64,000 nt of DNA from Escherichia coli (lineage in GTDB: Bacteria; Pseudomonadota; Gammaproteobacteria; Enterobacterales; Enterobacteriaceae). The notes below the pieces were generated by a model. The model was not told where the DNA came from and ran no database searches. It was given only the letters and a program-made list of their open reading frames with translations. The first letter of the stretch is position 1; each line of letters starts with the position of its first letter. Made by a program: the position numbers and the translations under genes. Location of the stretch: NCBI RefSeq assembly GCF_003018235.1, contig NZ_CP027437.1; one strand, 5' to 3'. This document shows, piece by piece, positions 2,580 through 38,095 of the stretch.

Positions 2580-2582
2580 AAG

Positions 2583-2612
2583 CACTGCCGGGGAAGTAAA
2601 CCCGGCATCATG
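2583..2612. terminator. Hairpin (gccgggg..cccggc) between convergent fhuF and bglJ
   Basis: GC stem with short loop directly after fhuF stop. Confidence 0.4.
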
Positions 2613-2616
2613 CGGA

Positions 2617-3294
2617 TTAATAGGGATGCAACACATTACTTGCTTCGCAATGCCGCATACATAACAGAATATCTGCGGCCTCCAACAACCCTGCATCAGA
2701 ACTGACGCCCAGTTTCGACATCACATTAAATTTATGTGCACGGATCGTTTTGATATTGCGTTTAAGCTGCTCGGCAATTTGTGTCATTGAGTAGCCACGC
2801 GACATAAAGCGCAATATTTCTCTCTCCGTCGGGCTTAGCGTTCGGCTTTGATTAATGTACCACTGATTGTTCAGTCGGTCGGTCGCCTGACGTACACCAT
2901 TTAATGACAAAAAGAGTTCCTGATGAAAAATCTCCAGCGTTGACGCTTTACTTAATACACCGTCCAACGGTGATGGCGACAATGAACCAATCAGCCGAGC
3001 TTCAATATCATCATCCGCAATAACTAAACGCCGGGTACGCGGAAACTTAATCGCCAGTTCAGTCAGGCAAGATAATCCCTCTCTGCGCTCACTTCTCATG
3101 GCAGAAAAAGAAAAAATGACCGCCGCAAACGAGATCCGCGACATGGCATCCTGAAATGACTCCTGACTGGTATAGGTATGGAGCTTATAAGGGTTACCCG
3201 CAAACTTTCTGAATAAACTCTCAATACCGATACTACTCATGACGCATTTTTCTATGAGTGCGACATTTCTCTTCTTAATTCGGCTGTGTTCCAT
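2617..3294 (-). CDS. bglJ: LuxR/FixJ-type transcriptional regulator BglJ
   Basis: 225-aa ORF with C-terminal HTH ([34 protein letters not shown]); overlaps yjjQ 3' end. Confidence 0.85.
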
Positions 3295-3977
3295 TCTGCG
3301 GCATCTCCATAAACAGAAGGCAAGTTAAGTTCTCTTGCACCCTGCGCGCTATTTATCCATGCATACATTTCAGCGTTGCTGTGAATTGCCAGTCGACGCA
3401 TCGCACTGTTTTTTTGGGCGCTGATAGTTTTATTACTTTTCTTAAGCAATGAAGCTATCTGGTTGATGCCCCATCCTTTACCTAATAGCCGCAGTACCTT
3501 GCGCTCTGAAAGAGTGAGAATGACGGAGCGATAGCTAAAATCATGAGTTTCAGTCATTGCCGGAGAGGTCAGCATGGCGCTGATACGCTCTGCGTGCGTA
3601 TTGCCGGAACGTACGGTCTTGACCAGATTCTCAATGGGTTCAACATCAGACAATAACGTCGCCGTAGGGCACATAAGCAGTTCTACTGCCTGGGAATACC
3701 AGGAGCGTGACACCATGAAAACCCAGTGAATTTCCCGATATTGTGAGATTAAAGAATAATAATGTTCACAAACAGAACGTGGATCTTCACTTTCACCGGC
3801 TAAATCAGCAATGACTAATCCGGAACGACGTAATTGTAATAAGGTAAGGTCCTCCGCAGAGGCGCTGGATATTATTTCATATTCAGGGAAGTGAGTCCTC
3901 ATGACCTCTTTTAACCCTGCTTGCATAACAGGTATTTTACTGATAACAATTCCATTTTTGCAGCATCCTGGCAACAT
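3252..3977 (-). CDS. yjjQ: LuxR-type transcriptional regulator YjjQ
   Basis: 241-aa ORF with LuxR HTH ([25 protein letters not shown]); operon partner of bglJ. Confidence 0.85.
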
Positions 3978-21519: not shown

Positions 21520-22323
21520 ATGGAAAACAGTTTTAAAGCGGCGCTGAAAGCAGGCCGCCCGCAGATCGGATTATGGCTGGGGCTAAGTAGCAGCTACAGC
21601 GCAGAGTTACTAGCCGGAGCAGGATTCGACTGGTTATTGATCGACGGTGAGCACGCGCCGAATAACGTGCAAACCGTGCTCACCCAACTACAGGCGATTG
21701 CGCCCTACCCCAGCCAGCCGGTAGTACGTCCGTCGTGGAACGATCCAGTGCAAATCAAACAACTGCTGGACGTCGGCACACAAACCTTACTGGTGCCGAT
21801 GGTACAAAACGCCGACGAAGCCCGTGAAGCGGTACGCGCCACCCGTTATCCCCCCGCCGGTATTCGCGGTGTGGGCAGTGCGCTGGCTCGCGCCTCGCGC
21901 TGGAATCGCATTCCTGATTACCTGCAAAAAGCCAACGATCAAATGTGCGTGCTGGTGCAGATCGAAACGCGTGAGGCAATGAAGAAATTACCGCAGATTC
22001 TGGACGTGGAAGGGGTCGACGGCGTGTTTATCGGCCCGGCGGATCTGAGCGCCGATATGGGTTATGCCGGTAATCCACAGCACCCGGAAGTACAGGTCGC
22101 CATTGAGCAGGCGATCGTGCAGATCCGCGAAGCGGGCAAAGCGCCGGGGATCCTGATCGCCAATGAGCAACTGGCAAAACGCTATCTGGAACTGGGCGCG
22201 CTGTTTGTCGCCGTCGGCGTTGACACCACCCTGCTCGCCCGCGCCGCCGAAGCGTTGGCAGCACGGTTTGGTAATAGTTCTTCTATTTCGATGGCGAAGC
22301 AAAACAACAACTCTGTCTACTAA
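21520..22323 (+). CDS. hpaI: 4-hydroxy-2-oxo-heptane-1,7-dioate aldolase (HpcH/HpaI class II aldolase)
   Basis: Start at [12 protein letters not shown] with AAGGAGAG RBS inside longer ORF 21379..22323. Confidence 0.85.
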
Positions 22324-22344
22324 ACGTACGATGTGGAGCGCATC

Positions 22345-23700
22345 ATGACGACCTCTACCCTGCAATATAAAGATAATAAAACTGTTGAAATTGAACATCG
22401 TGTCATTAATAAATTATTTCGTCGCCTAATCATTTTTCTTTTTATTCTGTTTGTTTTTTCGTTTCTTGATCGCATCAATATAGGATTTGCCGGACTGACA
22501 ATGGGCAAGGATCTTGGCCTGACGTCCACAATGTTTGGCCTCGCCGCGACACTCTTTTATGTCACGTACGTCATGTGCGGGATCCCCAGTAATATGATGT
22601 TAGCGAAAATTGGCGCTCGTCGATGGATCGCTGGGATCATGGTGGTCTGGGGAGTTGCTTCCACCTGCACAATGTTTGCAACAAGCCCCGAAACACTCTA
22701 TCTACTGCGTATGCTGGTTGGTATTGCTGAGGCGGGTTTTTTACCTGGTATTTTGGTTTATCTGACCTGGTGGTTCCCGGCATATCATCGGGCCAGAGCC
22801 AATGCCTTATTTATGATAGCGATGCCAGTCACTATGATGCTGGGATCGATCCTTTCAGGCTACATTCTGGCCTTGGATGGACTGTGGAATCTAAAAGGCT
22901 GGCAATGGCTCTTTTTGCTGGAAGGTCTGCCATCGGTCATTCTTGGTGTCGTCACCTGGTTTTATCTCAACGACACACCAGACCAGGCGACCTGGCTTGA
23001 TGAAAACGAAAAACAGGCTTTAAAAACGATGATTCTCCGTGAACAAGAGAGTGCATTTGCCCATGCATCTGTTCCACGCTCAACCTTACGTGAAGTCCTG
23101 ACCCCAGCCATCATGCTATATACACTTGCTTATTTTTGCCTGACCAATACTCTGAGTGCGATTAATATCTGGACGCCGCAAATCCTACAGAGTTTCAATA
23201 CTGGCAGTAGCAACATCATGATTGGTTTGCTGGCGGCCATCCCCCAATTCTGCACAATTTTTGGCATGATCTGGTGGAGTCGTCGTTCCGACCGTCTTAA
23301 AGAACGCAAAAAGCATACGATTCTTCCCTACCTGTTTGCCGCTGCCGGATGGTTACTCGCTTCTGCGACTGATCACAGCCTCATTCAACTGAGCGGCATC
23401 ATTATGGCCTCAATGGGATCATTTACCGCAATGGCTATCTTTTGGACGACACCGGATCAAGTAATAAGCTTGCAATCGCGTGCCGTTGCGATGGCTGTCA
23501 TCAATGCTGTCGGTAATGTAGGTTCAGCAGTCAGTCCATTACTTATCGGTATTTTGAAAGATGCAACCGGCAGTTTTAGCTCAGGTTTGTGGTTTGTAGC
23601 AGGATTACTGGTACTGGGCGCGTTAGTCATGACCCGAATTCCTATGGGGAGTCGGGAACACTCTCTTTCATCTGAACTTATCGCACCAAAACCGCAATAA
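22345..23700 (+). CDS. hpaX: MFS 4-hydroxyphenylacetate permease
   Basis: ORF 22333..23700, start at MTTSTLQYK; 12-TM MFS profile. Confidence 0.85.
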   Translation: MTTSTLQYKDNKTVEIEHRVINKLFRRLIIFLFILFVFSFLDRINIGFAGLTMGKDLGLTSTMFGLAATLFYVTYVMCGIPSNMMLAKIGARRWIAGIMVVWGVASTCTMFATSPETLYLLRMLVGIAEAGFLPGILVYLTWWFPAYHRARANALFMIAMPVTMMLGSILSGYILALDGLWNLKGWQWLFLLEGLPSVILGVVTWFYLNDTPDQATWLDENEKQALKTMILREQESAFAHASVPRSTLREVLTPAIMLYTLAYFCLTNTLSAINIWTPQILQSFNTGSSNIMIGLLAAIPQFCTIFGMIWWSRRSDRLKERKKHTILPYLFAAAGWLLASATDHSLIQLSGIIMASMGSFTAMAIFWTTPDQVISLQSRAVAMAVINAVGNVGSAVSPLLIGILKDATGSFSSGLWFVAGLLVLGALVMTRIPMGSREHSLSSELIAPKPQ

Positions 23701-23706
23701 GGAGTC

Positions 23707-24600
23707 ATGATGTCCAGTGAAGCTATCTTTGAACATGGTTATGAAAATATTGATTTGGTCCGGGAATATGATGCCCGCTACGCTGGTGAAGATGTGCATT
23801 ATGAAACATTTGCCAGGTTAGCGAATTTCTTTGGACGCGATATGCGCCCTCACTGGCACGATAGATATTTTCAACTCCATTATCTGGTCACTGGACGCAT
23901 TACTTTACAGCTGGATGAGCACTTCTATTCTGTGCGCGCACCGCTTTTTGTACTAACACCACCATCGGTGCCACATACTTTCTTTACTGAGCCTGATAGC
24001 GACGGGCATGTTCTGACCGTACGTCAGGAGTTAATTTGGCCCCTGGTAGAAAAGCTCTGGCCTGGTAGTGGAGATGCCGCAATGCTACAAGGTATCTGTC
24101 TATCGCTGGAGGGAATGGAACATACACTGGCGGCATTAAATCATTATTGGCCGATAATATCCCTGGAGTTTCAACAAAATAAGCCAGGACGGGAAATTCT
24201 ATTGCAATCACTGGCGCAAAGTATTTTTACAATCCTACTGCGTGAAGCACCACCAAATGATATTTCAACATGCAGCGTGCGCGGCGAGATGTGTTTATTC
24301 CAGAAGTTTAATCGGCTGATTGACGAAAATTATCGCCAACATTTAATGGTCCCTGAATATGCAGCAATGCTCGGTATGAGTGAATCACGGCTTACCGAGC
24401 TGTGCCGACGTTTTGCCAATCAATCGCCGAAGAGATTGATTTTCGAACGAGTGAGCCGGGAAGCCAGACGGCTTCTGCTCTATAGCGAGCAAAGCATCAA
24501 CCAGATTGCCCTTGATCTTGGCTACAAAGATCCCGCCTATTTCGCCCGTTTTTTCAACCGAATGATGGGTTGCTCACCAACACAATTCCGTGGTCGCTGA
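23707..24600 (+). CDS. hpaA: AraC/XylS-family activator of hpaBC
   Basis: 297-aa ORF with C-terminal AraC HTH (LGYKDPAYFARFFNRMMGCSP). Confidence 0.85.
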   Translation: MMSSEAIFEHGYENIDLVREYDARYAGEDVHYETFARLANFFGRDMRPHWHDRYFQLHYLVTGRITLQLDEHFYSVRAPLFVLTPPSVPHTFFTEPDSDGHVLTVRQELIWPLVEKLWPGSGDAAMLQGICLSLEGMEHTLAALNHYWPIISLEFQQNKPGREILLQSLAQSIFTILLREAPPNDISTCSVRGEMCLFQKFNRLIDENYRQHLMVPEYAAMLGMSESRLTELCRRFANQSPKRLIFERVSREARRLLLYSEQSINQIALDLGYKDPAYFARFFNRMMGCSPTQFRGR

Positions 24601-24626
24601 CCATTTATCAACCTGAGAGACTCGAC

Positions 24627-25565
24627 ATGAAAATATCTTTACGCTCACTATTTGTGGCGTGCCTGATTGCGCCAGTGGCATTCACCTACGCCTCCGAACC
24701 GCAAGAAATGAAAATTGTACTACTTGGAACGAAAGGTGGCCCTTCTTTATTAAAAGCTGACCGTTTGCCGATGGCAACGGCACTTATTATTGGCAATAAA
24801 ACATGGTTAATTGATGCTGGTTACGGGGCCAGCTTACAACTGGTAAAAAATAATATTCCACTGCGCCAGATTGATAATATTTTACTCACCCATTTACACA
24901 GTGATCATATTCTGGACTATCCCTCAGTCTTAATGAATGCATGGGCTAGCGGTCTGCAGGACAAAACTATTCATGTGTTCGGTCCGCCAGGCACCCGAGC
25001 CATGACCGCTGCCAGTTGGCAGGTCTTCGATCGGGACATCACACTGCGTATGGAAGAAGAAGGAAAACCCGATCCTCGCAAGCTCGTTACAGCTCAAGAT
25101 GTTGGTGAAGGCGTAGTTTATAAAGATGATACCGTGACCGTGACTGCATTAAAGGTTCCTCATTCTCCTTTCCCTGACGGTGAGGCTTTTGCTTATCGCT
25201 TCGACACACAAGGCAAGCGAATTGTCTTCTCAGGAGATACCTCGTACTTTCCCCCACTGGCAACTTTCTCAGAAGGCGCTGATATACTTGTGCATGAGGC
25301 CGTACATGAGCCCTCCGTCGCTAAGCTGGCAGACAGTATTGGCAATGGTAAAACACTGGCAAAAGCCATTGCTTCTCACCATACGACTATTGAGGATGTA
25401 GGCAAAATTGCCAATGAAGCAAAAGTGAAAAAACTCATCCTTAGCCACCTGGTACCAATCACCGTTCCGGATGAAACATGGAAGCAAGAAGCACAGAAAA
25501 ACTATTCAGGCCCTATCGTCGTTGGTCATGAAAATATGACGATTACCATTCCATTCGCCCCATAA
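24627..25565 (+). CDS. Secreted metallo-beta-lactamase-fold hydrolase (HxHxDH Zn motif), function unknown
   Basis: ORF 24570..25565, start at MKISLRSLFVACLIAPVAFTYA (signal peptide); THLHSDHILDYP motif; lies between hpaA and hpaB. Confidence 0.6.
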   Translation: MKISLRSLFVACLIAPVAFTYASEPQEMKIVLLGTKGGPSLLKADRLPMATALIIGNKTWLIDAGYGASLQLVKNNIPLRQIDNILLTHLHSDHILDYPSVLMNAWASGLQDKTIHVFGPPGTRAMTAASWQVFDRDITLRMEEEGKPDPRKLVTAQDVGEGVVYKDDTVTVTALKVPHSPFPDGEAFAYRFDTQGKRIVFSGDTSYFPPLATFSEGADILVHEAVHEPSVAKLADSIGNGKTLAKAIASHHTTIEDVGKIANEAKVKKLILSHLVPITVPDETWKQEAQKNYSGPIVVGHENMTITIPFAP

Positions 25566-25791
25566 AAAATTCCGTCCCCGTTAGCCCTTGTTAGCGGGGA
25601 ATATTATGATTTGCCTTACTGCAAGTTGATCACGATCGCAGTTTACTATTTAACTCCACCTTGCTGGCGAAAAGTACCAACGTTCGCCTGAAACGTCTCT
25701 TCCCGACAACCGCGTTCAACGCTTCAATTAAATAACAAAAACAACACACAAAATTAACAATCGTATTCCGATTAATACTGTAGAGGTCGAC

Positions 25792-27354
25792 ATGAAACCA
25801 GAAGATTTCCGCGCCAGTACCCAACGTCCGTTCACCGGGGAAGAGTATCTGAAAAGCCTGCAGGATGGTCGCGAGATCTATATCTATGGCGAGCGAGTGA
25901 AAGACGTCACTACTCATCCGGCATTTCGTAATGCGGCAGCGTCTGTTGCCCAACTGTACGACGCGCTGCACAAACCGGAGATGCAGGACTCTCTGTGTTG
26001 GAACACCGACACCGGCAGCGGCGGCTATACCCATAAATTCTTCCGCGTGGCGAAAAGTGCCGACGACCTGCGCCAGCAACGCGACGCCATCGCTGAGTGG
26101 TCACGCCTGAGCTATGGCTGGATGGGCCGCACCCCAGACTACAAAGCCGCTTTCGGTTGCGCACTGGGCGCGAATCCGGGCTTTTACGGTCAGTTCGAGC
26201 AGAACGCCCGTAACTGGTACACCCGTATTCAGGAAACTGGCCTCTACTTTAACCACGCGATTGTTAACCCACCGATTGATCGTCATTTGCCGACCGATAA
26301 AGTGAAAGACGTTTACATCAAGCTGGAAAAAGAGACTGACGCCGGGATTATCGTCAGCGGTGCGAAAGTGGTTGCCACCAACTCGGCGCTGACTCACTAC
26401 AACATGATTGGCTTCGGCTCGGCACAAGTGATGGGCGAAAACCCGGACTTCGCACTGATGTTCGTTGCGCCAATGGATGCCGATGGCGTGAAATTAATCT
26501 CCCGCGCCTCTTATGAAATGGTGGCGGGTGCTACCGGCTCGCCGTACGACTACCCGCTCTCCAGCCGCTTTGATGAGAACGATGCGATTCTGGTGATGGA
26601 TAACGTGCTGATCCCATGGGAAAACGTACTGATCTACCGCGATTTCGATCGCTGCCGTCGCTGGACAATGGAAGGTGGTTTTGCCCGTATGTATCCGCTG
26701 CAAGCCTGTGTGCGCCTGGCAGTGAAATTAGACTTCATTACGGCACTGCTGAAAAAATCACTCGAATGTACCGGCACCCTGGAGTTCCGTGGTGTGCAGG
26801 CCGATCTCGGTGAAGTGGTGGCGTGGCGCAACACCTTCTGGGCATTGAGTGACTCGATGTGTTCAGAAGCGACGCCGTGGGTCAACGGGGCTTATTTACC
26901 GGATCATGCCGCACTGCAAACCTATCGCGTACTGGCACCAATGGCCTACGCGAAGATCAAAAACATTATCGAACGCAACGTTACCAGTGGCCTGATCTAT
27001 CTTCCTTCCAGTGCCCGTGACCTGAACAATCCGCAGATCGACCAGTATCTGGCGAAGTATGTGCGCGGTTCGAATGGTATGGATCACGTCCAGCGCATCA
27101 AGATCCTCAAACTGATGTGGGATGCTATTGGCAGCGAATTTGGTGGTCGTCACGAACTGTATGAAATCAACTACTCCGGTAGCCAGGATGAGATTCGCCT
27201 GCAGTGTCTGCGCCAGGCACAAAGCTCCGGCAATATGGACAAGATGATGGCGATGGTTGATCGCTGCCTGTCGGAATACGACCAGAACGGCTGGACTGTG
27301 CCGCACCTGCACAACAACGACGATATCAACATGCTGGATAAGCTGCTGAAATAA
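25792..27354 (+). CDS. hpaB: 4-hydroxyphenylacetate 3-monooxygenase, oxygenase component (FADH2-dependent)
   Basis: 520-aa ORF; recognised sequence; followed by flavin reductase gene. Confidence 0.9.
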   Translation: MKPEDFRASTQRPFTGEEYLKSLQDGREIYIYGERVKDVTTHPAFRNAAASVAQLYDALHKPEMQDSLCWNTDTGSGGYTHKFFRVAKSADDLRQQRDAIAEWSRLSYGWMGRTPDYKAAFGCALGANPGFYGQFEQNARNWYTRIQETGLYFNHAIVNPPIDRHLPTDKVKDVYIKLEKETDAGIIVSGAKVVATNSALTHYNMIGFGSAQVMGENPDFALMFVAPMDADGVKLISRASYEMVAGATGSPYDYPLSSRFDENDAILVMDNVLIPWENVLIYRDFDRCRRWTMEGGFARMYPLQACVRLAVKLDFITALLKKSLECTGTLEFRGVQADLGEVVAWRNTFWALSDSMCSEATPWVNGAYLPDHAALQTYRVLAPMAYAKIKNIIERNVTSGLIYLPSSARDLNNPQIDQYLAKYVRGSNGMDHVQRIKILKLMWDAIGSEFGGRHELYEINYSGSQDEIRLQCLRQAQSSGNMDKMMAMVDRCLSEYDQNGWTVPHLHNNDDINMLDKLLK

Positions 27355-27371
27355 CGCAGCAGGAGGTTAAG

Positions 27372-27884
27372 ATGCAATTAGATGAACAACGCCTGCGCTT
27401 TCGTGACGCAATGGCCAGCCTGTCGGCAGCGGTAAATATTATCACCACCGAGGGCAACGCCGGGCAATGCGGGATTACGGCAACGGCTGTCTGCTCGGTC
27501 ACGGATACACCACCGTCGCTGATGGTGTGCATTAACGCCAACAGTGCGATGAACCCGGTTTTTCAGGGCAACGGTAAGTTGTGCGTCAACGTCCTCAACC
27601 ATGAGCAGGAACTGATGGCACGCCACTTCGCGGGCATGACAGGCATGGCGATGGAAGAGCGTTTTAGCCTCTCATGCTGGCAAAAAGGTCCGCTGGCGCA
27701 GCCGGTGCTAAAAGGTTCGCTGGCCAGTCTTGAAGGTGAGATCCGCGATGTGCAGGCAATTGGCACACATCTGGTGTATCTGGTGGAGATTAAAAACATC
27801 ATCCTCAGTGCAGAAGGTCACGGACTTATCTACTTTAAACGCCGTTTCCATCCGGTGATGCTGGAAATGGAAGCTGCGATTTAA
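27372..27884 (+). CDS. hpaC: 4-hydroxyphenylacetate 3-monooxygenase reductase component (NAD(P)H:flavin oxidoreductase)
   Basis: 170-aa ORF with flavin reductase-like fold, tight spacing after hpaB. Confidence 0.9.
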   Translation: MQLDEQRLRFRDAMASLSAAVNIITTEGNAGQCGITATAVCSVTDTPPSLMVCINANSAMNPVFQGNGKLCVNVLNHEQELMARHFAGMTGMAMEERFSLSCWQKGPLAQPVLKGSLASLEGEIRDVQAIGTHLVYLVEIKNIILSAEGHGLIYFKRRFHPVMLEMEAAI

Positions 27885-30687: not shown

Positions 30688-31644
30688 ATGAACCCGATTG
30701 CAGTTACCCTACTCACCGGTTTTTTAGGCGCGGGCAAAACCACCCTGCTGCGCCATATTCTTAACGAACAACACGGCTACAAGATTGCCGTGATTGAAAA
30801 CGAATTCGGCGAAGTCTCCGTTGATGATCAATTGATTGGTGATCGCGCCAGGCAGATCAAAACGCTGACCAACGGCTGCATCTGCTGTTCGCGCTCCAAC
30901 GAGCTGGAAGACGCACTACTCGACCTGCTGGATAATCTCGACAAGGGCAATATTCAGTTCGATCGTCTGGTCATTGAATGCACCGGCATGGCCGATCCCG
31001 GCCCGATTATTCAGACCTTTTTCTCCCATGAGATTTTATGCCAGCGCTACCTGCTGGACGGCGTGATTGCGCTGGTGGATGCGGTACATGCCGATGAGCA
31101 GATGAACCAGTTCACCATCGCCCAGTCCCAGGTGGGCTACGCCGACCGTATTCTGCTGACTAAAACCGACGTCGCAGGTGAAGCAGAAAAACTGCGCGAA
31201 CGCCTGGCACGCATCAACGCCCGCGCACCGGTCTACACCGTCACCCACGGTGACATCGACCTGGGCCTGTTGTTCAACACCAACGGTTTTATGCTGGAAG
31301 AAAACGTCGTCAGCACCAAACCGCGTTTCCACTTTATCGCGGATAAACAAAACGATATTTCGTCGATTGTGGTGGAACTGGATTACCCGGTAGATATCAG
31401 CGAAGTTTCCCGCGTGATGGAAAACCTGCTGCTGGAATCGGCAGATAAACTGCTGCGTTACAAAGGGATGCTGTGGATTGACGGCGAACCTAACCGCCTG
31501 CTGTTCCAGGGCGTCCAGCGCCTCTACAGCGCCGACTGGGACAGGCCGTGGGGTGATGAAACACCGCATAGCACAATGGTGTTTATCGGGATTCAGCTGC
31601 CGGAGGATGAGATTCGGGCAGCGTTTGCGGGGTTGAGGAAGTAA
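30688..31644 (+). CDS. yjiA: CobW/HypB-family (COG0523) metal-binding GTPase
   Basis: Start at MNPIAVTLLTGFLGAGKTTLL (P-loop) inside ORF 30604..31644; CxCC motif (GCICCS). Confidence 0.9.
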   Translation: MNPIAVTLLTGFLGAGKTTLLRHILNEQHGYKIAVIENEFGEVSVDDQLIGDRARQIKTLTNGCICCSRSNELEDALLDLLDNLDKGNIQFDRLVIECTGMADPGPIIQTFFSHEILCQRYLLDGVIALVDAVHADEQMNQFTIAQSQVGYADRILLTKTDVAGEAEKLRERLARINARAPVYTVTHGDIDLGLLFNTNGFMLEENVVSTKPRFHFIADKQNDISSIVVELDYPVDISEVSRVMENLLLESADKLLRYKGMLWIDGEPNRLLFQGVQRLYSADWDRPWGDETPHSTMVFIGIQLPEDEIRAAFAGLRK

Positions 31645-31653
31645 GGGGTTATG

Positions 31654-31680
31654 GGCCGGATAAGGCGCAGCCGCATCCGG
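31654..31680. repeat. REP element between yjiA and mrr
   Basis: gccggataaggcgcagccgcatccgg, near-identical to the REP at 20656. Confidence 0.55.
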
Positions 31681-31689
31681 TCTGATATT

Positions 31690-32604
31690 TCACTCAAAAT
31701 AGTCCATATCCAGTTTCGGCACCTTCAACAAACGTGAAGAAACCCCTACTTCGTTTTCGATCATTAAGTGCACCAGGCGTTCCCCATCAACCAGCACCAT
31801 ACCCTCGACGGATTGGGCAAAGTCACGCGCCTGAGAAGTAAATCCAGAAGTGGTAATAAACACCCCACGTTTCGCTTTTTGCCCAGCCAGTGCGCCGTAA
31901 AATGCCTGTAATTCTGGCCTGCCTACAGTATTCTGCCAACGTTTTGCCTGAACATAAACTTTCTCCAGGCCAAGTTTATCAAGCGATATCACACCATCGA
32001 TGCCACCATCTCCAGTACCGCCAACACGCTGCAAATCATCACGGTGGCCGCCATACCCCAGGCGATGCAAAACATCCAGAACAATGACTTCAAAGCGCGA
32101 AGGAGAAACCTGCAATAAGTTTTCCAGAACCTCATCAGCCACCGCATCACGAAGCTCTTTTAGCGCCTGATCTAACCGATCGTCCGGGCTGCTCTTTGCA
32201 AGTTCTTCATGATCGGGAGAGTCGGCTTTCGGATCTAAATCGACGGCATCCGGCCGTGACTTAAGTTTGACATTCACAAAATCGAAGGCCAGATGGTTCG
32301 TCTCCTGCTCCGTCATTGGCTGGGGATGAGACGCAACCCAGTCAAAACCCGCAGGAGTCAGGCACCATTTGCCACGCGACAAACTTTGCGACAACCCGGC
32401 ACGTTTTAAACGGTCATGCGCCCAGCCTGCACGATTTTTATAAACAAGTTGTCCGCTGGTAATGACTTTCGCTCGCTGGCTGTCATCCAGTCCTAATGCA
32501 TCCGCGGCAGCCTCATGAACATCACGCGCGGCTGCACCTTCCGGTTTTGTCGCCAGATAACGCAGAACAGGTTCAATAAATTTGTCATAGGTTGGAACCG
32601 TCAT
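31690..32604 (-). CDS. mrr: Type IV methyl-directed restriction endonuclease Mrr
   Basis: 304-aa ORF; C-terminal Mrr-cat PD-(D/E)xK domain; position flanking hsdR. Confidence 0.9.
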   Translation of the reverse strand: MTVPTYDKFIEPVLRYLATKPEGAAARDVHEAAADALGLDDSQRAKVITSGQLVYKNRAGWAHDRLKRAGLSQSLSRGKWCLTPAGFDWVASHPQPMTEQETNHLAFDFVNVKLKSRPDAVDLDPKADSPDHEELAKSSPDDRLDQALKELRDAVADEVLENLLQVSPSRFEVIVLDVLHRLGYGGHRDDLQRVGGTGDGGIDGVISLDKLGLEKVYVQAKRWQNTVGRPELQAFYGALAGQKAKRGVFITTSGFTSQARDFAQSVEGMVLVDGERLVHLMIENEVGVSSRLLKVPKLDMDYFE

Positions 32605-32791
32605 AGTACATCCTTGCAGAATCAGGTAGATGTTTTTCGGCTACTATAACACTACCAAAATAGGCGAACACGTTAGAAATGAGTCAGTTGCTGTGACCGT
32701 GGTCATTGCCCGGAAAGGTACAGAAAGCTAAGATGCGATGTTATGGGCCTTAAATATTTGGACAGGCCCACACAGCAATGGATTAATAACA

Positions 32792-35700
32792 ATGATGAAT
32801 AAATCCAATTTTGAATTCCTGAAGGGCGTCAACGACTTCACTTATGCCATCGCCTGTGCGGCGGAAAATAACTACCCGGATGATCCCAACACGACGCTGA
32901 TTAAAATGCGTATGTTTGGCGAAGCCACAGCGAAACATCTTGGTCTGTTACTCAACATCCCCCCTTGTGAGAATCAACACGATCTCCTGCGCGAACTCGG
33001 CAAAATCGCCTTCGTTGATGACAACATCCTCTCTGTATTTCACAAATTACGCCGCATTGGTAACCAGGCGGTGCACGAATATCACAACGATCTCGACGAT
33101 GCCCAGATGTGCCTGCGGCTCGGGTTCCGCTTGGCTGTCTGGTACTACCGTCTGGTCACCAAAGATTATGACTTCCCGGTGCCGGTATTTGTGTTGCCGG
33201 AACGTGGCGAAAACCTCTATCACCAGGAAGTGCTGACGCTAAAACAACAGCTTGAACAGCAGGCGCGAGAAAAAGCGCAGACTCAGGCAGAAGTCGAAGC
33301 GCAACAGCAGAAGCTGGTTGCCCTGAACGGCTATATCGCCATTCTGGAAGGCAAACAGCAGGAAACAGAAGCGCAAACCCAGGCTCGCCTTGCGGCGCTG
33401 GAAGCACAGCTTGCCGAGAAGAACGCGGAACTGGCAAAACAGACCGAACAGGAACGTAAGGCTTACCACAAAGAAATTACCGATCAGGCCATCAAGCGCG
33501 CACTCAACCTTAGCGAAGAAGAGAGCCGCTTCCTGATTGACGCGCAACTGCGTAAAGCAGGCTGGCAGGCCGATAGCAAAACCCTGCGCTTCTCCAAAGG
33601 CGCACGCCCGGAACCCGGCGTCAATAAAGCCATTGCCGAATGGCCGACCGGGAAAGATGAAACGGGTAATCAGGGCTTTGCGGATTATGTGCTGTTTGTC
33701 GGCCTCAAGCCCATCGCGGTGGTAGAGGCGAAACGTAAAAATATCGACGTTCCAGGCAAGCTCAATGAGTCTTATCGCTACAGCAAATGCTTCGATAATG
33801 GCTTCCTGCGGGAAACCTTGCTTGAGCACTACTCACCGGATGAAGTGCATGAAGCAGTGCCGGAGTATGAAACCAGCTGGCAGGACACCAGCGGCCAACA
33901 ACGGTTTAAAATCCCCTTCTGCTACTCGACCAACGGGCGCGAATACCGCGCAGCAATGAAGACCAAAAGCGGCATCTGGTATCGCGACGTGCGTGATACC
34001 CGCAATATGTCGAAAGCCTTACCCGAGTGGCACCGCCCGGAAGAGCTGCTGGAAATGCTCGGCAGTGAACCGCAAAAACAGAATCAGTGGTTTGCCGATA
34101 ACCCTGGTATGAGCGAGCTGGGTCTGCGTTATTATCAGGAAGATGCCGTCCGCGCGGTTGAAAAGGCTATCGTCAAGGGCCAACAAGAGATCCTACTGGC
34201 GATGGCGACCGGTACCGGTAAAACCCGTACGGCAATCGCCATGATGTTCCGCCTGATCCAGTCCCAACGTTTTAAACGCATTCTCTTCCTTGTGGATCGC
34301 CGCTCTCTTGGCGAGCAGGCGCTGGGGGCGTTTGAAGATACGCGTATTAACGGCGACACCTTCAACAGCATTTTCGACATTAAAGGTCTGACGGATAAAT
34401 TCCCGGAAGACAGCACAAAAATTCACGTTGCCACCGTACAGTCGCTGGTGAAACGCACCCTGCAATCAGATGAACCGATGCCGGTGGCCCGTTACGACTG
34501 TATCGTCGTTGACGAAGCGCATCGCGGCTATATTCTCGATAAAGAGCAGACCGAAGGCGAGCTGCAGTTCCGCAGCCAGCTGGATTACGTTTCTGCCTAC
34601 CGTCGCATTCTCGATCACTTCGATGCGGTAAAAATCGCCCTCACCGCCACCCCGGCGCTGCATACGGTGCAGATTTTCGGCGAGCCGGTTTACCGTTACA
34701 CCTACCGTACCGCGGTTATCGACGGTTTTCTGATCGACCAGGATCCGCCGATTCAGATCACCACCCGCAACGCACAGGAAGGGGTTTATCTCTCCAAGGG
34801 CGAACAGGTAGAGCGCATCAGCCCGCAGGGAGAAGTGATCAACGATACCCTGGAAGACGATCAGGATTTTGAGGTCGCCGACTTTAACCGAGGCCTGGTG
34901 ATCCCGGCGTTTAACCGCGCCGTCTGTAACGAACTCACCAACTACCTTGATCCGACCGGGTCACAAAAAACGCTGGTCTTCTGCGTCACCAATGCCCATG
35001 CCGATATGGTGGTGGAAGAGCTGCGTACCGCATTCAAGAAAAAGTATCCGCAACTGGAGCACGACGCGATCATCAAGATCACCGGTGATGCCGATAAAGA
35101 CGCGCGCAAAGTGCAGACCATGATCACCCGTTTCAATAAAGAGCGGCTGCCCAATATCGTGGTAACCGTCGACCTGCTGACGACCGGTGTCGATATTCCG
35201 TCGATCTGTAATATCGTGTTCCTGCGTAAAGTACGCAGCCGCATTCTGTACGAACAGATGAAAGGCCGCGCCACGCGCTTATGCCCGGAGGTGAATAAAA
35301 CCAGCTTTAAGATTTTTGACTGTGTCGATATTTACAGCACGCTGGAGAGCGTCGACACCATGCGTCCGGTGGTGGTGCGCCCGAAGGTGGAACTGCAAAC
35401 GCTGGTCAATGAAATTACCGATTCAGAAACCTATAAAATCACCGAAGCGGATGGCCGTAGCTTTGCCGAGCACAGCCATGAACAACTGGTGGCGAAGCTC
35501 CAGCGCATCATCGGCCTGGCCACATTTAACCGTGACCGCAGCGAAACGATAGATAAACAGGTGCGTCGTCTGGATGAGCTATGCCAGGACGCGGCGGGAG
35601 TGAACTTTAACGGCTTCGCCTCGCGCCTGCGGGAAAAAGGGCCGCACTGGAGCGCCGAAGTCTTTAACAAACTGCCTGGCTTTATCGCCCGTCTGGAAAA

Positions 35701-36304
35701 GCTGAAAACCGACATCAACAACCTGAATGATGCGCCGATCTTCCTCGATATCGACGATGAAGTGGTGAGCGTAAAATCGTTGTACGGTGATTACGACACG
35801 CCGCAGGATTTCCTCGAAGCCTTTGACTCGCTGGTGCAACGTTCCCCGAACGCACAGCCGGCATTGCAGGCGGTGATCAATCGCCCGCGCGATCTCACCC
35901 GTAAAGGGCTGGTCGAACTCCAGGAGTGGTTTGACCGCCAGCACTTTGAGGAATCTTCCCTGCGCAAAGCGTGGAAAGAGACGCGTAATGAAGATATTGC
36001 CGCCCGGCTGATTGGTCATATTCGCCGTGCTGCGGTAGGCGATGCGCTGAAACCGTTTGAGGAACGTGTCGATCACGCGCTGACGCGCATCAAGGGCGAA
36101 AACGACTGGAGCAGCGAGCAATTAAGCTGGCTCGATCGTTTAGCGCAGGCGCTGAAAGAGAAAGTGGTGCTCGACGACGATGTCTTCAAAACCGGCAACT
36201 TCCACCGTCGCGGCGGGAAGGCGATGCTGCAAAGAACCTTTGACGATAATCTCGACAACCTGCTCGATAAATTCAGCGATTATATCTGGGACGAGCTGGC
36301 CTGA
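32792..36304 (+). CDS. hsdR: Type I restriction enzyme R subunit (HsdR), family IA
   Basis: ORF 32738..36304, start at MMNKSNFEFL; SF2 helicase motifs (ATGTGKT, VVDEAHRG). Confidence 0.95.
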   Translation: MMNKSNFEFLKGVNDFTYAIACAAENNYPDDPNTTLIKMRMFGEATAKHLGLLLNIPPCENQHDLLRELGKIAFVDDNILSVFHKLRRIGNQAVHEYHNDLDDAQMCLRLGFRLAVWYYRLVTKDYDFPVPVFVLPERGENLYHQEVLTLKQQLEQQAREKAQTQAEVEAQQQKLVALNGYIAILEGKQQETEAQTQARLAALEAQLAEKNAELAKQTEQERKAYHKEITDQAIKRALNLSEEESRFLIDAQLRKAGWQADSKTLRFSKGARPEPGVNKAIAEWPTGKDETGNQGFADYVLFVGLKPIAVVEAKRKNIDVPGKLNESYRYSKCFDNGFLRETLLEHYSPDEVHEAVPEYETSWQDTSGQQRFKIPFCYSTNGREYRAAMKTKSGIWYRDVRDTRNMSKALPEWHRPEELLEMLGSEPQKQNQWFADNPGMSELGLRYYQEDAVRAVEKAIVKGQQEILLAMATGTGKTRTAIAMMFRLIQSQRFKRILFLVDRRSLGEQALGAFEDTRINGDTFNSIFDIKGLTDKFPEDSTKIHVATVQSLVKRTLQSDEPMPVARYDCIVVDEAHRGYILDKEQTEGELQFRSQLDYVSAYRRILDHFDAVKIALTATPALHTVQIFGEPVYRYTYRTAVIDGFLIDQDPPIQITTRNAQEGVYLSKGEQVERISPQGEVINDTLEDDQDFEVADFNRGLVIPAFNRAVCNELTNYLDPTGSQKTLVFCVTNAHADMVVEELRTAFKKKYPQLEHDAIIKITGDADKDARKVQTMITRFNKERLPNIVVTVDLLTTGVDIPSICNIVFLRKVRSRILYEQMKGRATRLCPEVNKTSFKIFDCVDIYSTLESVDTMRPVVVRPKVELQTLVNEITDSETYKITEADGRSFAEHSHEQLVAKLQRIIGLATFNRDRSETIDKQVRRLDELCQDAAGVNFNGFASRLREKGPHWSAEVFNKLPGFIARLEKLKTDINNLNDAPIFLDIDDEVVSVKSLYGDYDTPQDFLEAFDSLVQRSPNAQPALQAVINRPRDLTRKGLVELQEWFDRQHFEESSLRKAWKETRNEDIAARLIGHIRRAAVGDALKPFEERVDHALTRIKGENDWSSEQLSWLDRLAQALKEKVVLDDDVFKTGNFHRRGGKAMLQRTFDDNLDNLLDKFSDYIWDELA

Positions 36305-36505
36305 CACGTATACACTTCATCCTTCAGGCTGCCTCTGCGTTGGCTGCGCTCGTTCACCCCGGTCACGTACTTCTGTACGCTCCCGGGGATTCACTCACTT
36401 GCCGCCTTGATGCAACCTGAATGATTTTGTGTATATTACCCTCGGCAATTTCTTCTTCTACGGCCCCAAACAATGCGGGCCGTTGTTTAATTTACGGAAC
36501 TCACA

Positions 36506-38095
36506 ATGAACAATAACGATCTGGTCGCGAAGCTGTGGAAGCTGTGCGACAACCTGCGCGATGGCGGCGTTTCCTATCAAAACTACGTCAATGAACTCGC
36601 CTCGCTGCTGTTTTTGAAAATGTGTAAAGAGACCGGGCAGGAAGCGGAATACCTGCCGGAAGGTTACCGCTGGGATGACCTGAAATCCCGCATCGGCCAG
36701 GAGCAGTTGCAGTTCTACCGAAAAATGCTCGTGCATTTAGGCGAAGATGACAAAAAGCTGGTACAGGCAGTTTTTCATAATGTTAGTACCACCATCACCG
36801 AGCCGAAACAAATAACCGCACTGGTCAGCAATATGGATTCACTGGACTGGTACAACGGCGCGCACGGTAAGTCGCGCGATGACTTCGGCGATATGTACGA
36901 AGGGCTGCTGCAGAAGAACGCCAACGAAACCAAGTCTGGTGCAGGCCAGTACTTCACCCCGCGTCCGCTGATTAAAACCATTATTCATCTGCTGAAACCG
37001 CAGCCACGTGAAGTGGTACAGGACCCGGCAGCGGGTACGGCGGGCTTTTTGATTGAAGCCGACCGCTACGTTAAGTCGCAGACCAATGATCTGGACGACC
37101 TTGATGGCGACACGCAGGATTTCCAAATCCACCGCGCGTTTATCGGCCTCGAACTGGTGCCCGGCACCCGTCGTCTGGCGCTGATGAACTGCCTGCTGCA
37201 CGATATTGAAGGCAACCTCGACCACGGCGGCGCAATCCGTCTGGGCAACACTCTGGGTAGCGACGGTGAAAACCTGCCGAAGGCGCATATTGTCGCCACT
37301 AACCCGCCGTTTGGCAGCGCCGCAGGCACCAACATTACCCGCACCTTTGTTCACCCGACCAGCAACAAACAGTTGTGCTTTATGCAGCATATTATTGAAA
37401 CGCTGCATCCCGGCGGTCGTGCGGCGGTGGTTGTGCCGGATAACGTGCTGTTTGAAGGCGGCAAAGGCACCGACATTCGTCGTGACCTGATGGATAAGTG
37501 TCATCTGCACACCATTCTGCGTCTGCCGACCGGTATTTTTTACGCTCAGGGCGTGAAGACCAACGTGCTGTTCTTTACCAAAGGGACGGTGGCGAACCCG
37601 AATCAGGATAAGAACTGTACCGATGATGTGTGGGTGTATGACCTGCGTACCAATATGCCGAGTTTCGGCAAGCGCACGCCGTTTACCGACGAGCATTTGC
37701 AGCCGTTTGAGCGCGTGTATGGCGAAGACCCGCACGGTTTAAGCCCGCGTACTGAAGGAGAATGGAGTTTTAACGCCGAAGAGACGGAAGTTGCCGACAG
37801 CGAAGAGAACAAAAATACCGATCAGCATCTTGCTACCAGCCGCTGGCGCAAGTTCAGCCGTGAGTGGATCCGCACCGCGAAATCCGATTCGCTGGATATC
37901 TCCTGGCTGAAAGATAAAGACAGTATTGATGCCGACAACCTGCCGGAGCCGGATGTGTTAGCGGCAGAAGCGATGGGCGAACTGGTACAGGCGCTGTCTG
38001 AACTGGATGCGCTGATGCGTGAACTGGGGGCGAGCGATGAGGCGGATGCGCAGCGCCAGTTGCTGGAAGAAGCATTTGGTGGGGTGAAGGAATGA
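36506..38095 (+). CDS. hsdM: Type I restriction-modification N6-adenine DNA methyltransferase subunit (HsdM)
   Basis: 529-aa ORF with SAM-binding and catalytic NPPF motif (TNPPFGSA). Confidence 0.95.
   Translation: MNNNDLVAKLWKLCDNLRDGGVSYQNYVNELASLLFLKMCKETGQEAEYLPEGYRWDDLKSRIGQEQLQFYRKMLVHLGEDDKKLVQAVFHNVSTTITEPKQITALVSNMDSLDWYNGAHGKSRDDFGDMYEGLLQKNANETKSGAGQYFTPRPLIKTIIHLLKPQPREVVQDPAAGTAGFLIEADRYVKSQTNDLDDLDGDTQDFQIHRAFIGLELVPGTRRLALMNCLLHDIEGNLDHGGAIRLGNTLGSDGENLPKAHIVATNPPFGSAAGTNITRTFVHPTSNKQLCFMQHIIETLHPGGRAAVVVPDNVLFEGGKGTDIRRDLMDKCHLHTILRLPTGIFYAQGVKTNVLFFTKGTVANPNQDKNCTDDVWVYDLRTNMPSFGKRTPFTDEHLQPFERVYGEDPHGLSPRTEGEWSFNAEETEVADSEENKNTDQHLATSRWRKFSREWIRTAKSDSLDISWLKDKDSIDADNLPEPDVLAAEAMGELVQALSELDALMRELGASDEADAQRQLLEEAFGGVKE

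What the first reader, a model, noticed from the sequence alone, without database searches (positions are those of the whole stretch)
24627..25565. Secreted MBL-fold hydrolase embedded between hpaA and hpaBC
A ~313-aa gene with a clear signal peptide and an HxHxDH zinc motif sits between the regulator hpaA and its target operon hpaBC. Classical descriptions of the hpa cluster do not include a periplasmic metallo-hydrolase, so this may be an uncharacterised accessory step (for example hydrolysis of an aromatic ester or lactone precursor) or an unrelated passenger gene.
Basis: partly seen in the sequence, partly recalled or inferred. Interest (0 to 1): 0.4.

Follow-up and report, generated by a model that had tools for sequence, protein, structure and literature searches.

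The report
Periplasmic sulfatase-like hydrolase in hpa cluster
A rare E. coli version of the hydroxyphenylacetate-degradation cluster carries an extra, uncharacterised exported zinc-hydrolase gene whose relatives sit beside the same kind of aromatic-acid pathways in many other bacteria, so it probably frees the aromatic acid from a conjugate (most likely a sulfate ester) before uptake.

Summary
Window 24627-25565 (+) encodes a 312-aa protein with a Sec-type signal peptide and a complete MBL metal-binding set. It lies 26 nt after hpaA and 226 nt before hpaB.

It is not part of the classical cluster. Only 48 of 2071 hpa-positive complete E. coli genomes carry it. In all 48 it lies in one low-GC imported block, hpaX-hpaA-MBL (about 22272-25668), that replaces the classical hpaX-hpaA. 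RefSeq calls it only "MBL fold metallo-hydrolase".

It is probably not a passenger. Relatives abut homoprotocatechuate genes, HPA hydroxylases, a tyramine-oxidase cluster, homogentisate dioxygenase or HPPD in other genera. These include Salmonella, Pseudomonas, Stutzerimonas, Alcanivorax, Cobetia, Salinisphaera, Acinetobacter and Roseomonas. They usually sit right after a transporter gene, and all have export signals. Salmonella orthologues have dN/dS of 0.06-0.16.

Best reading: a periplasmic di-metal ester hydrolase that unmasks hydroxyphenylacetate-type compounds, most likely aryl sulfates, before uptake. The substrate is inferred, not shown.

The parts
22272..25668 (.). Imported low-GC block: 3' end of hpaI, hpaX, hpaA, the MBL gene and part of the hpaA-hpaB spacer. 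It replaces the classical E. coli hpaX-hpaA segment.
   Evidence: Megablast to 2071 hpa-positive genomes breaks at window 22271/22272 and resumes at 25669. The block is intact at 99.2-100% identity in exactly 48 genomes. GC is 46.2-46.6% and GC3 41-47%, against 51-58% and 58-70% in the flanking genes.
22345..23700 (+). hpaX, the 4-hydroxyphenylacetate MFS permease, in a divergent allele.
   Evidence: NCBIfam TIGR02332 HpaX scores 861 bits. It is 71% identical in amino acids to classical E. coli HpaX. RefSeq annotates it in L001.
23710..24600 (+). hpaA, the AraC-type activator of hpaBC, in a divergent allele.
   Evidence: NCBIfam TIGR02297 HpaA scores 491 bits. It is 59% identical to classical E. 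coli HpaA. Its nearest relatives are an unnamed sequence at 84% and Pluralibacter gergoviae at 80%.
24601..24626 (+). 26-nt hpaA-MBL spacer with a weak Shine-Dalgarno-like GAGAG (24615-24619) and no terminator.
   Evidence: Read directly from the sequence. The scan found no terminator-like site there.
24627..25565 (+). MBL-fold hydrolase gene: 312 aa, exported, of the S4-arylsulfatase-like / ElaC branch.
   Evidence: ORF. Pfam Lactamase_B_2 E = 5.6e-20. RefSeq WP_001672356.1 is named 'MBL fold metallo-hydrolase'. AF2 model pLDDT is 89.7. The best PDB match is 8gyg.
24627..24692 (+). Predicted Sec signal peptide, residues 1-22, with cleavage after T-Y-A.
   Evidence: Hydropathy and motif analysis. 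N-terminal export signals are conserved across the family, with Tat-type RR motifs in distant members.
24891..24908 (+). HxHxDH metal-binding motif (H89 L H91 S D93 H94).
   Evidence: Sequence. H89, H91 and H94 are invariant and D93 nearly invariant in A2.
25575..25600 (+). Terminator-like hairpin just after the MBL stop codon: an 11-bp stem and 4-nt loop, followed by a U-rich AUAUUAUGAUUU tail.
   Evidence: RNA fold gives -20.3 kcal/mol with z = -3.75 against shuffles. The consensus scan missed it.
25669..25791 (+). hpaBC upstream (promoter) region shared with classical E. coli. It is identical from about 25722 and only about 70% similar over 25669-25721.
   Evidence: Pairwise alignment with classical locus L002 and the megablast boundary.
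25792..27884 (+). hpaB-hpaC, the 4-HPA 3-monooxygenase genes, in the classical E. coli allele.
   Evidence: 97-98% DNA identity to the other 2023 hpa-positive genomes. Annotation.

Best explanation
The gene encodes a functional periplasmic hydrolase with a two-metal (Zn-type) MBL centre. It belongs to the ElaC/AtsA branch of the superfamily. It acts as an accessory 'front end' of hydroxyphenylacetate catabolism.

Proposed sequence of events:
1. The gene is transcribed with hpaX-hpaA as the last gene of that unit.
2. The protein is exported by Sec.
3. In the periplasm the metal-activated hydroxide cleaves an ester bond that masks a hydroxyphenylacetate-type compound. The bond is most probably an aryl O-sulfate, such as 4-(sulfooxy)phenylacetate or the sulfates of 3-HPA, DOPAC or tyramine. 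A phosphate ester is less likely.
4. The freed aromatic acid is taken up by HpaX, induces HpaA and is degraded by HpaBC and the meta-cleavage enzymes.

Shown here: the gene, its motifs, the predicted fold, the export signals, purifying selection, the rarity and mosaic origin in E. coli, and the cross-genus linkage to HPA and tyrosine-derived catabolism and to transporters.

Inferred: co-transcription, periplasmic location, the ester chemistry and the identity of the substrate.
For: 1. An intact, constrained enzyme.
- All seven MBL ligands plus the HEA and HHT motifs are invariant in 28 homologues.
- The model has pLDDT 89.7.
- dN/dS is 0.06-0.16 among Salmonella orthologues.

2. Export.
- The query has a Sec-type signal.
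- Sec or Tat signals occur throughout the family.

3. Link to the pathway.
- Salmonella arizonae and diarizonae: hpaGEDFHI-X-A-MBL.
- P. putida and Alcanivorax: MBL directly after hpaI.
- P. solani and S. stutzeri: HpaR-HpaA-TRAP-MFS-MBL next to the C2/C1 HPA hydroxylase.
- Cobetia and Salinisphaera: hpa-like genes, a phenol hydroxylase and a TRAP transporter beside the MBL.
- Acinetobacter: MBL-GMC oxidoreductase-aldehyde dehydrogenase-Cu amine oxidase-porin.
- Roseomonas (11 loci): homogentisate dioxygenase-MBL-FAD monooxygenase.
- Achromobacter, Cupriavidus and Ralstonia: HPPD nearby.
- Of the 15 species-representative loci at 46% identity or more, 11 carry HPA- or tyramine-pathway or regulator genes within 10 kb.

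4. Position.
- The gene usually lies just after an uptake gene: HpaX/A, MFS, DctM, TctC or a TSUP permease.

5. Chemistry.
- The closest solved protein is the arylsulfatase 8gyg: E 1.5e-25 with the single sequence and 3e-52 with the family profile, against about 1e-28 for PNGM-1 and RNase Z.

6. Sulfur-related neighbours in three lineages.
- A TauE/TSUP permease lies directly upstream in 33 Bradyrhizobium-type loci.
- An S1 sulfatase shares the Achromobacter operon.
- FGE-like ORFs lie near the Acinetobacter cluster.

7. Candidate substrates exist in nature.
- 4-(sulfooxy)phenylacetic acid occurs in a marine alga (PMC6278426).
- HPA and DHPA sulfates are discussed as mammalian phase II metabolites (PMC9736156).

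8. Transcription unit.
- There is a 26-nt gap after hpaA, a hairpin after the MBL gene, and shared GC and GC3 across hpaX, hpaA and the MBL gene.
Against: - No experiment exists, and no paper found links hpa genes with this family.
- Identity to 8gyg is only 24-33%.
- Family-invariant residues K36, D137, R141 and E145 are not shared with 8gyg, so specificity or even chemistry may differ.
- S4 'arylsulfatase' activity is known only on artificial substrates (PMC5066984). It could be a promiscuous activity of a phosphodiesterase-like scaffold.
- The Achromobacter operon already has an S1 sulfatase, which could mean the MBL does something else.
- Linkage is not universal. P. sagittaria, P. linyingensis, Castellaniella, Photobacterium and most Bradyrhizobium loci show no HPA genes nearby.
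- 2023 of 2071 hpa-positive E. coli genomes do without the gene.
- The closest HpaA-type clusters, Pluralibacter and an unnamed relative, lack it.
- Promoter and terminator scans gave nothing above chance.
Confidence: 0.4

Rival explanations
1. It is a periplasmic phosphodiesterase or phosphatase, like ZiPD/ElaC, PhnP or cyclic-nucleotide phosphodiesterases. It would cleave phosphate esters, either aromatic phosphate esters or generic nucleotides and phosphodiesters, rather than sulfate esters.
Against: All NCBIfam scores are far below their cut-offs: 127 against 252, and 84 against 400. The B. subtilis RNase Z stretch of about residues 151-200, which I take to be the flexible arm, has no counterpart in the query. 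An exported protein cannot process tRNA. The family profile prefers the arylsulfatase by about 77 bits. A generic phosphodiesterase does not explain the linkage to HPA and tyrosine catabolism, and natural aromatic phosphate esters are rare (own knowledge).
Confidence: 0.2
2. It is a periplasmic carboxyl-ester, lactone or amide hydrolase. It would release hydroxyphenylacetate from esters, amides such as glycine or glutamine conjugates or beta-lactam side chains, or lactones. This would be functionally analogous to penicillin G acylase, whose gene lies next to the hpa cluster in E. coli W (own knowledge: Prieto et al. 1996; I could not retrieve the paper).
Confidence: 0.15
3. It is a passenger gene with a function unrelated to hydroxyphenylacetate. 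Examples would be sulfur scavenging or general periplasmic housekeeping. It would simply have hitch-hiked into E. coli with a foreign hpaX-hpaA segment.
For: - The gene is rare in E. coli: 48 of 5426 genomes, and 48 of 2071 hpa-positive genomes.
- It arrived in a recombined block.
- The closest hpaA-type clusters lack it.
- Many homologues at 47% identity or less, including Bradyrhizobium, sit next to housekeeping genes (pheST, rplT) and a TSUP permease, with no aromatic genes nearby.
- SulfAtlas suggests that S4 enzymes serve sulfate acquisition (PMC5066984).
Against: The linkage to HPA, homoprotocatechuate, homogentisate or tyramine genes recurs in at least eight genera across gamma-, beta- and alpha-proteobacteria. 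The local gene orders and downstream pathways differ, which is hard to explain by hitch-hiking. The composition shared with hpaX and hpaA suggests long co-residence in the donor. The gene is under purifying selection.
Confidence: 0.2

Closest known systems
SulfAtlas family S4 MBL-fold arylsulfatases: AtsA of Pseudoalteromonas carrageenovora and the P. atlantica arylsulfatase PDB 8gyg.
   Different: Identity is only 24-33%. Family-invariant K36, D137, R141 and E145 are replaced in 8gyg. S4 enzymes have been assayed only on artificial aryl sulfates and have no known link to aromatic-acid catabolism (PMC5066984). Whether the SulfAtlas S4 model would accept this protein was not tested.
RNase Z / ElaC / ZiPD zinc phosphodiesterases.
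   Different: The protein is exported. The flexible arm (exosite) segment has no counterpart. Scores are far below the NCBIfam equivalog cut-offs.
PNGM-1, a metagenomic MBL with reported dual beta-lactamase / RNase Z activity (the activity is from my own knowledge).
   Different: The score is about 77 bits lower than for the arylsulfatase. PNGM-1 is 372 aa. No beta-lactam context is present here.
The classical E. coli W/C hpa cluster, hpaR-hpaGEDFHI-hpaXA-hpaBC (own knowledge: Prieto et al. 1996).
   Same: The same genes occur in the same order at the same chromosomal site next to btsT, yjiX and yjiA. hpaG-I and hpaBC are 96-100% identical to the classical alleles.
   Different: There is an extra gene between hpaA and hpaB. 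hpaX and hpaA are replaced by alleles 71% and 59% identical in amino acids. The variant is present in only 48 of 2071 hpa-positive complete genomes.
Penicillin G acylase (pac), adjacent to the hpa cluster in E. coli W.
   Same: Conceptually it is the same arrangement: a periplasmic hydrolase encoded beside hpa and proposed to release (hydroxy)phenylacetate from conjugates for catabolism. This is from my own knowledge and was not verified here.
   Different: It has an unrelated fold (Ntn hydrolase), performs amide hydrolysis and lies at a different position in the cluster.

Membership tests
Metallo-beta-lactamase fold superfamily (Pfam Lactamase_B_2 / Lactamase_B) | The profile score exceeds the gathering threshold. 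| tested here: met
   PF12706 scores 72.2 bits against 27, and PF00753 scores 45.8 against 22.7.
Metallo-beta-lactamase fold superfamily (Pfam Lactamase_B_2 / Lactamase_B) | HxHxDH motif plus the downstream His, Asp and His metal ligands. | tested here: met
   H89, H91, D93, H94, H179, D204 and H274 are present and invariant or nearly invariant in 28 homologues.
Metallo-beta-lactamase fold superfamily (Pfam Lactamase_B_2 / Lactamase_B) | The alpha-beta/beta-alpha sandwich fold. | tested here: met
SulfAtlas S4 arylsulfatase (AtsA type) | Significant full-length homology to a characterised S4 enzyme, closer than to other MBL branches. | tested here: met
SulfAtlas S4 arylsulfatase (AtsA type) | Acceptance by the curated SulfAtlas S4 HMM, or placement inside the S4 clade in a phylogeny. 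| not tested
   The SulfAtlas models were not available. The SulfAtlas tree shows uncharacterised clades between RNase Z and S4 (PMC5066984), and this family could be one of them.
SulfAtlas S4 arylsulfatase (AtsA type) | Hydrolysis of aryl sulfate esters. | not testable with these tools
   This needs an enzyme assay.
RNase Z / ElaC tRNA 3' endonuclease | The score reaches the NCBIfam equivalog cut-off. | tested here: not met
   NF000801 scores 127 against 252, TIGR02651 scores 125 against 293 and TIGR02649 scores 50 against 564.
RNase Z / ElaC tRNA 3' endonuclease | A flexible arm (exosite) for tRNA binding, and a cytoplasmic location. | tested here: not met
   The match to B. subtilis RNase Z splits into residues 1-150 and 201-272, and the intervening arm has no counterpart. 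The query carries a signal peptide.
Classical hpa cluster gene set | The gene belongs to the conserved hpa gene complement of E. coli. | tested here: not met
   It is absent from 2023 of 2071 hpa-positive complete genomes and from classical locus L002.
AHL / quorum-quenching or other MBL lactonases | Sequence or structural proximity to characterised lactonases. | tested here: not met
Anti-Pycsar Apyc1 / cyclic-nucleotide phosphodiesterase | The score reaches the curated cut-off. | tested here: not met
   PF23023 scores 19.3 against 50 and NF041851 scores 83.7 against 400.

The most novel reading that the evidence does not exclude
This protein would represent a widespread, previously unrecognised subfamily of exported S4-like MBL-fold sulfatases. 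Their physiological role would be to de-sulfate hydroxyphenylacetate-type phenolic acids and amines before uptake. Possible sources are host phase II conjugates in the gut and algal or seagrass sulfated phenolics in the sea. That would give the orphan S4 sulfatase family its first natural substrates and add a new extracytoplasmic first step to the hpa and homogentisate pathways.
Probability: 0.25. Interest if true: 0.65.

Novelty: new variant of a known kind. Interest (0 to 1): 0.45.

Why it matters
If the reading is right, some E. coli and Salmonella lineages and many environmental proteobacteria can feed on conjugated (probably sulfated) hydroxyphenylacetates, not only on the free acids. That would connect host detoxification products and algal sulfated phenolics to a well-known aromatic pathway. 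It would also assign a physiological substrate to an MBL-fold sulfatase family known only from artificial substrates.

The locus is also a clean example of allelic replacement inside a catabolic cluster. A permease-regulator-hydrolase module was swapped as one unit.

If the reading is wrong, the gene is still an unannotated, conserved periplasmic enzyme family whose genomic context gives a short list of testable substrates.

Tried and rejected
- Anti-phage Apyc1-type or cyclic-nucleotide phosphodiesterase: rejected as sub-threshold.
- AHL-type lactonase: rejected as remote.
- Lipoprotein: rejected. Cys12 lies too early and without a lipobox context (my reading).
- Consensus promoter and terminator scans around the gene gave counts at or below shuffled expectation. 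Only the hairpin found by folding stands out.
- Donor of the block: not identified. The closest HpaA relatives are an unnamed sequence at 84% and Pluralibacter gergoviae at 80%. Both lack the MBL gene, and P. gergoviae has a much higher GC content.
- Literature searches for 'hpaY', 8GYG and hpa+MBL/sulfatase returned nothing relevant.
- The Prieto 1996 paper could not be retrieved.
- The afdb50 fold library was unavailable.
- Contexts of several distant homologues (P0094, Photobacterium, Pseudohoeflea, P. sagittaria) were uninformative.
Full report
**1.

- The ORF listing and the raw sequence show an ORF whose first plausible start is the ATG at 24627 and whose TAA ends at 25565. That is 312 codons.
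- The N-terminus MKISLRSLFVACLIAPVAFTYA|SEPQ has a basic n-region and a 13-residue hydrophobic core with an 11-residue Kyte-Doolittle mean up to 2.7. It ends in a small-residue T-Y-A motif.
- The HxHxDH motif is H89-L-H91-S-D93-H94, at window 24891-24908.
- Pfam assigns Lactamase_B_2 (72.2 bits, cut-off 27) and Lactamase_B.
- The upstream gene is HpaA (TIGR02297, 491 bits), preceded by HpaX (TIGR02332, 861 bits). The downstream genes are hpaB and hpaC.
- RefSeq annotates the identical gene in E. coli ST2747 as 'MBL fold metallo-hydrolase', WP_001672356.1.

**2. In E. coli it is a rare mosaic allele of the cluster**

- Of 5426 complete genomes, 2071 match hpaB, but only 48 carry the MBL gene. 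All 48 copies are chromosomal.
- For the other 2023 genomes, megablast identity stops at window 22271/22272, inside the 3' end of hpaI, and resumes at 25669, in the hpaA-hpaB spacer.
- The block between these points is present intact in the 48 genomes, with 100% coverage and 99.2-100% identity. Their sources are humans, dogs, cattle, poultry, wild birds, a baboon, vegetables and wastewater.
- Within the block, HpaX is 71% and HpaA 59% identical in amino acids to the classical E. coli proteins. The flanking hpa proteins are 98-100% identical.
- hpaX, hpaA and the MBL gene share GC of 46.2-46.6% and GC3 of 41-47%. The flanking genes have 51-58% and 58-70%. Classical hpaX and hpaA have 52-54% and 55-66%.
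- The three genes therefore look like one module imported from a lower-GC donor.
- The donor was not found. The nearest HpaA relatives are an unnamed sequence at 84% and Pluralibacter gergoviae at 80%. In both, hpaA is not followed by the MBL gene.
- The nearest MBL relatives are an unnamed sequence at 85% and Salmonella sequences at 76-81%.

**3. Local anatomy**

- Only 26 nt separate the hpaA stop codon from the MBL start. That spacer has a weak GAGAG Shine-Dalgarno-like element and no hairpin.
- An 11-bp hairpin with a U-rich tail begins about 10 nt after the MBL stop, at 25575-25600. It folds at -20.3 kcal/mol with z = -3.75.
- The last roughly 70 nt before hpaB are identical to the classical hpaBC upstream region.
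- I infer that the MBL gene is the last gene of the hpaX-hpaA transcription unit and that the hpaBC promoter is retained.
- Consensus promoter and terminator scans were uninformative.

**4. What the protein is**

- The AF2 model is confident, with pLDDT 89.7 and pTM 0.87.

| Test | 8gyg arylsulfatase (P. atlantica) | Next-best matches | Calls |
|---|---|---|---|

- 8gyg is 24-33% identical to all 120 family members examined. The best matches are the gamma-proteobacterial members.
- SulfAtlas defines family S4 as homologues of the P. carrageenovora arylsulfatase AtsA. It describes the family as an ElaC-related MBL enzyme tested only on 4-methylumbelliferyl sulfate, and notes uncharacterised clades between RNase Z and S4 (PMC5066984, PMC9825549).
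- All RNase Z, GntH, cyclic-nucleotide phosphodiesterase, PhnP and lactonase NCBIfam models score far below their cut-offs.
- The RNase Z arm has no counterpart in the query.
- In an alignment of 28 homologues, the seven metal ligands, E224 and H252 are invariant. So are K36, D137, R141 and E145, which 8gyg does not share.
- The protein is therefore a member of the sulfate/phosphate-ester-cleaving ElaC/AtsA branch and is nearest to S4. Formal S4 membership and its substrate remain untested.

**5. It is exported and under selection**

- Every full-length homologue in A2 has an N-terminal export signal. Close relatives have Sec-like signals. The 40-45% identical alpha- and beta-proteobacterial members have clear twin-arginine motifs, for example MIDRREIM and MFDRRALL.
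- dN/dS among four Salmonella orthologues is 0.06-0.16.

**6. The genomic context is the strongest functional evidence**

| Organism(s) | Identity to query | Local arrangement |
|---|---|---|
| Salmonella arizonae, diarizonae and other Salmonella | 76-81% | hpaGEDFHI-hpaX-hpaA-MBL |
| P. putida; Alcanivorax and Alloalcanivorax | 53-58% | MBL directly after hpaI |
| P. solani; Stutzerimonas stutzeri | 52-56% | HpaR-HpaA-(OprD)-TRAP DctPQM-MFS-MBL, then the C2/C1 two-component HPA hydroxylase |
| Cobetia | 47% | hpa-like genes, FAD phenol hydroxylase, TRAP transporter, MBL, porin, aldehyde dehydrogenase |
| Salinisphaera | 48% | hpa-like genes, FAD phenol hydroxylase directly upstream of the MBL, MFS |
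| Acinetobacter sp. ANC 3832 | 47% | MFS \| MBL-GMC oxidoreductase-aldehyde dehydrogenase-LuxR-copper amine oxidase-porin, which looks like a tyramine/tyrosol-to-HPA module |
| Acinetobacter sp. P8-3-8 | 46% | C2/C1 hydroxylase and an HpaR-like regulator nearby |
| Roseomonas-type loci (11) | about 43% | Homogentisate 1,2-dioxygenase-MBL-FAD_binding_3 monooxygenase, with TctC upstream |
| Achromobacter | 40% | MarR \| S1 sulfatase-FMN dehydrogenase-TctC-MBL-HPPD-like |
| Cupriavidus and Ralstonia | 43-45% | HPPD within 1.6-3.5 kb; in C. pauculus also an aromatic amino-acid permease and an aminotransferase |
| Bradyrhizobium-type loci (33) | 43-47% | TauE/SafE (TSUP) permease directly upstream on the same strand, and a flavin amine oxidase downstream on the opposite strand |

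- Of the 15 species-representative loci at 46% identity or more, 11 carry HPA- or tyramine-pathway genes or regulators within 10 kb.
- Some loci show no link: P. sagittaria, P. linyingensis, Castellaniella and Photobacterium.
- The association follows the substrate class, hydroxyphenyl acids, rather than one downstream pathway. It occurs with homoprotocatechuate meta-cleavage, with homogentisate and with HPPD.
- The gene usually sits next to an uptake system.
- This pattern is what one expects of an extracytoplasmic enzyme that prepares a substrate for import. It is hard to reconcile with a passenger gene.

**7. Mechanistic proposal**

- I propose a two-metal centre that activates hydroxide to attack the sulfur, or less likely the phosphorus, of an aryl ester in the periplasm.
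- This releases 4-HPA, 3-HPA, DOPAC or tyramine-type phenols.
- These are imported (by HpaX in E. coli), induce HpaA and are degraded.
- Natural candidate substrates exist. 4-(sulfooxy)phenylacetic acid occurs in the green alga Dasycladus (PMC6278426). Sulfates of 3-HPA, 4-HPA and 3,4-dihydroxyphenylacetate are discussed as mammalian phase II metabolites (PMC9736156).
- Sulfur-related neighbours appear in three lineages: a TSUP permease, an S1 sulfatase and FGE-like ORFs. This is modest extra support.
- From my own knowledge, penicillin G acylase, encoded beside hpa in E. coli W, has been proposed to play an analogous scavenging role. I could not retrieve that paper.
- Steps shown: the gene, motifs, fold, export signals, selection and synteny.
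- Steps inferred: the operon structure, the localisation, the chemistry and the substrate.

**8. Caveats**

- Identity to the only characterised relatives is about 30%.
- The activity of those relatives is known only on artificial substrates.
- The presence of an S1 sulfatase in one operon could mean that the MBL has another role.
- Most hpa-positive E. coli lack the gene.
- No literature connects the two.

**9. Probabilities and verdict**

| Claim | Probability |
|---|---|
| Functional exported MBL hydrolase | about 0.9 |
| Functionally tied to hydroxyphenyl-acid catabolism | about 0.7 |
| Aryl-sulfate hydrolysis | about 0.35 |
| Phosphate-ester hydrolysis | about 0.2 |
| Carboxyl-ester, amide or lactone hydrolysis | about 0.15 |
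| Unrelated passenger | about 0.2 |

These categories overlap, because the chemistry question and the linkage question are partly independent.

- The finding is a real, currently unannotated accessory gene in a variant hpa cluster.
- It is moderately interesting, mainly because the cross-genus synteny turns it into a directly testable hypothesis about an orphan enzyme family.

Noticed in passing
window 22272-22323 (3' end of hpaI): The left recombination junction lies inside hpaI. The variant HpaI is 267 aa against 262 aa in classical E. coli, so its C-terminus is chimeric and extended.
   Followed up: partly
window 25669-25721: The distal part of the hpaBC upstream region is only about 70% similar to the classical sequence, while the proximal roughly 70 nt are identical. 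With an HpaA only 59% identical, this stretch might hold a co-diverged operator.
   Followed up: no
L090:1-7700 (Salmonella, Logan SRR10037879): A Mu-like prophage (MuA transposase, MuB, Gam, Kil) sits immediately upstream of the MBL gene. In sister contigs L091 and L092 that position holds hpaH-I-X-A, so the MBL gene is uncoupled from hpa in that strain.
   Followed up: no
P0004 (419 aa, 46-kb Logan contig): This MBL homologue, 77% identical, also carries an Aldedh Pfam hit. It may be a fusion or a frameshift artefact.
   Followed up: no
L087:10263-11152 (Acinetobacter, Logan SRR5436207): Two short FGE-sulfatase (PF03781) ORFs lie just downstream of the MBL-GMC-Aldedh-LuxR-Cu amine oxidase-porin cluster. 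They look like a split gene.
   Followed up: no
L096 (Pluralibacter gergoviae CP009450) 2450-3523: This hpa cluster uses a Glyoxalase-fold (type I extradiol) homoprotocatechuate dioxygenase instead of the LigB-type HpaD of E. coli. It is followed by several SymE toxin genes instead of hpaBC.
   Followed up: no
window 22333 vs 22345; 23707 vs 23710: The mechanical ORF starts (GTG at 22333 for hpaX, ATG at 23707 for hpaA) differ from the RefSeq starts (22345 and 23710).
   Followed up: partly
window about 31600-37500 (L001 18984-24939): Downstream of yjiA this strain has two hypothetical genes and an EcoAI-type type I restriction-modification system. Classical strain 746 has a BrnT/BrnA toxin-antitoxin pair, a restriction endonuclease and a different type I system. 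This is a variable immigration-control region.
   Followed up: no
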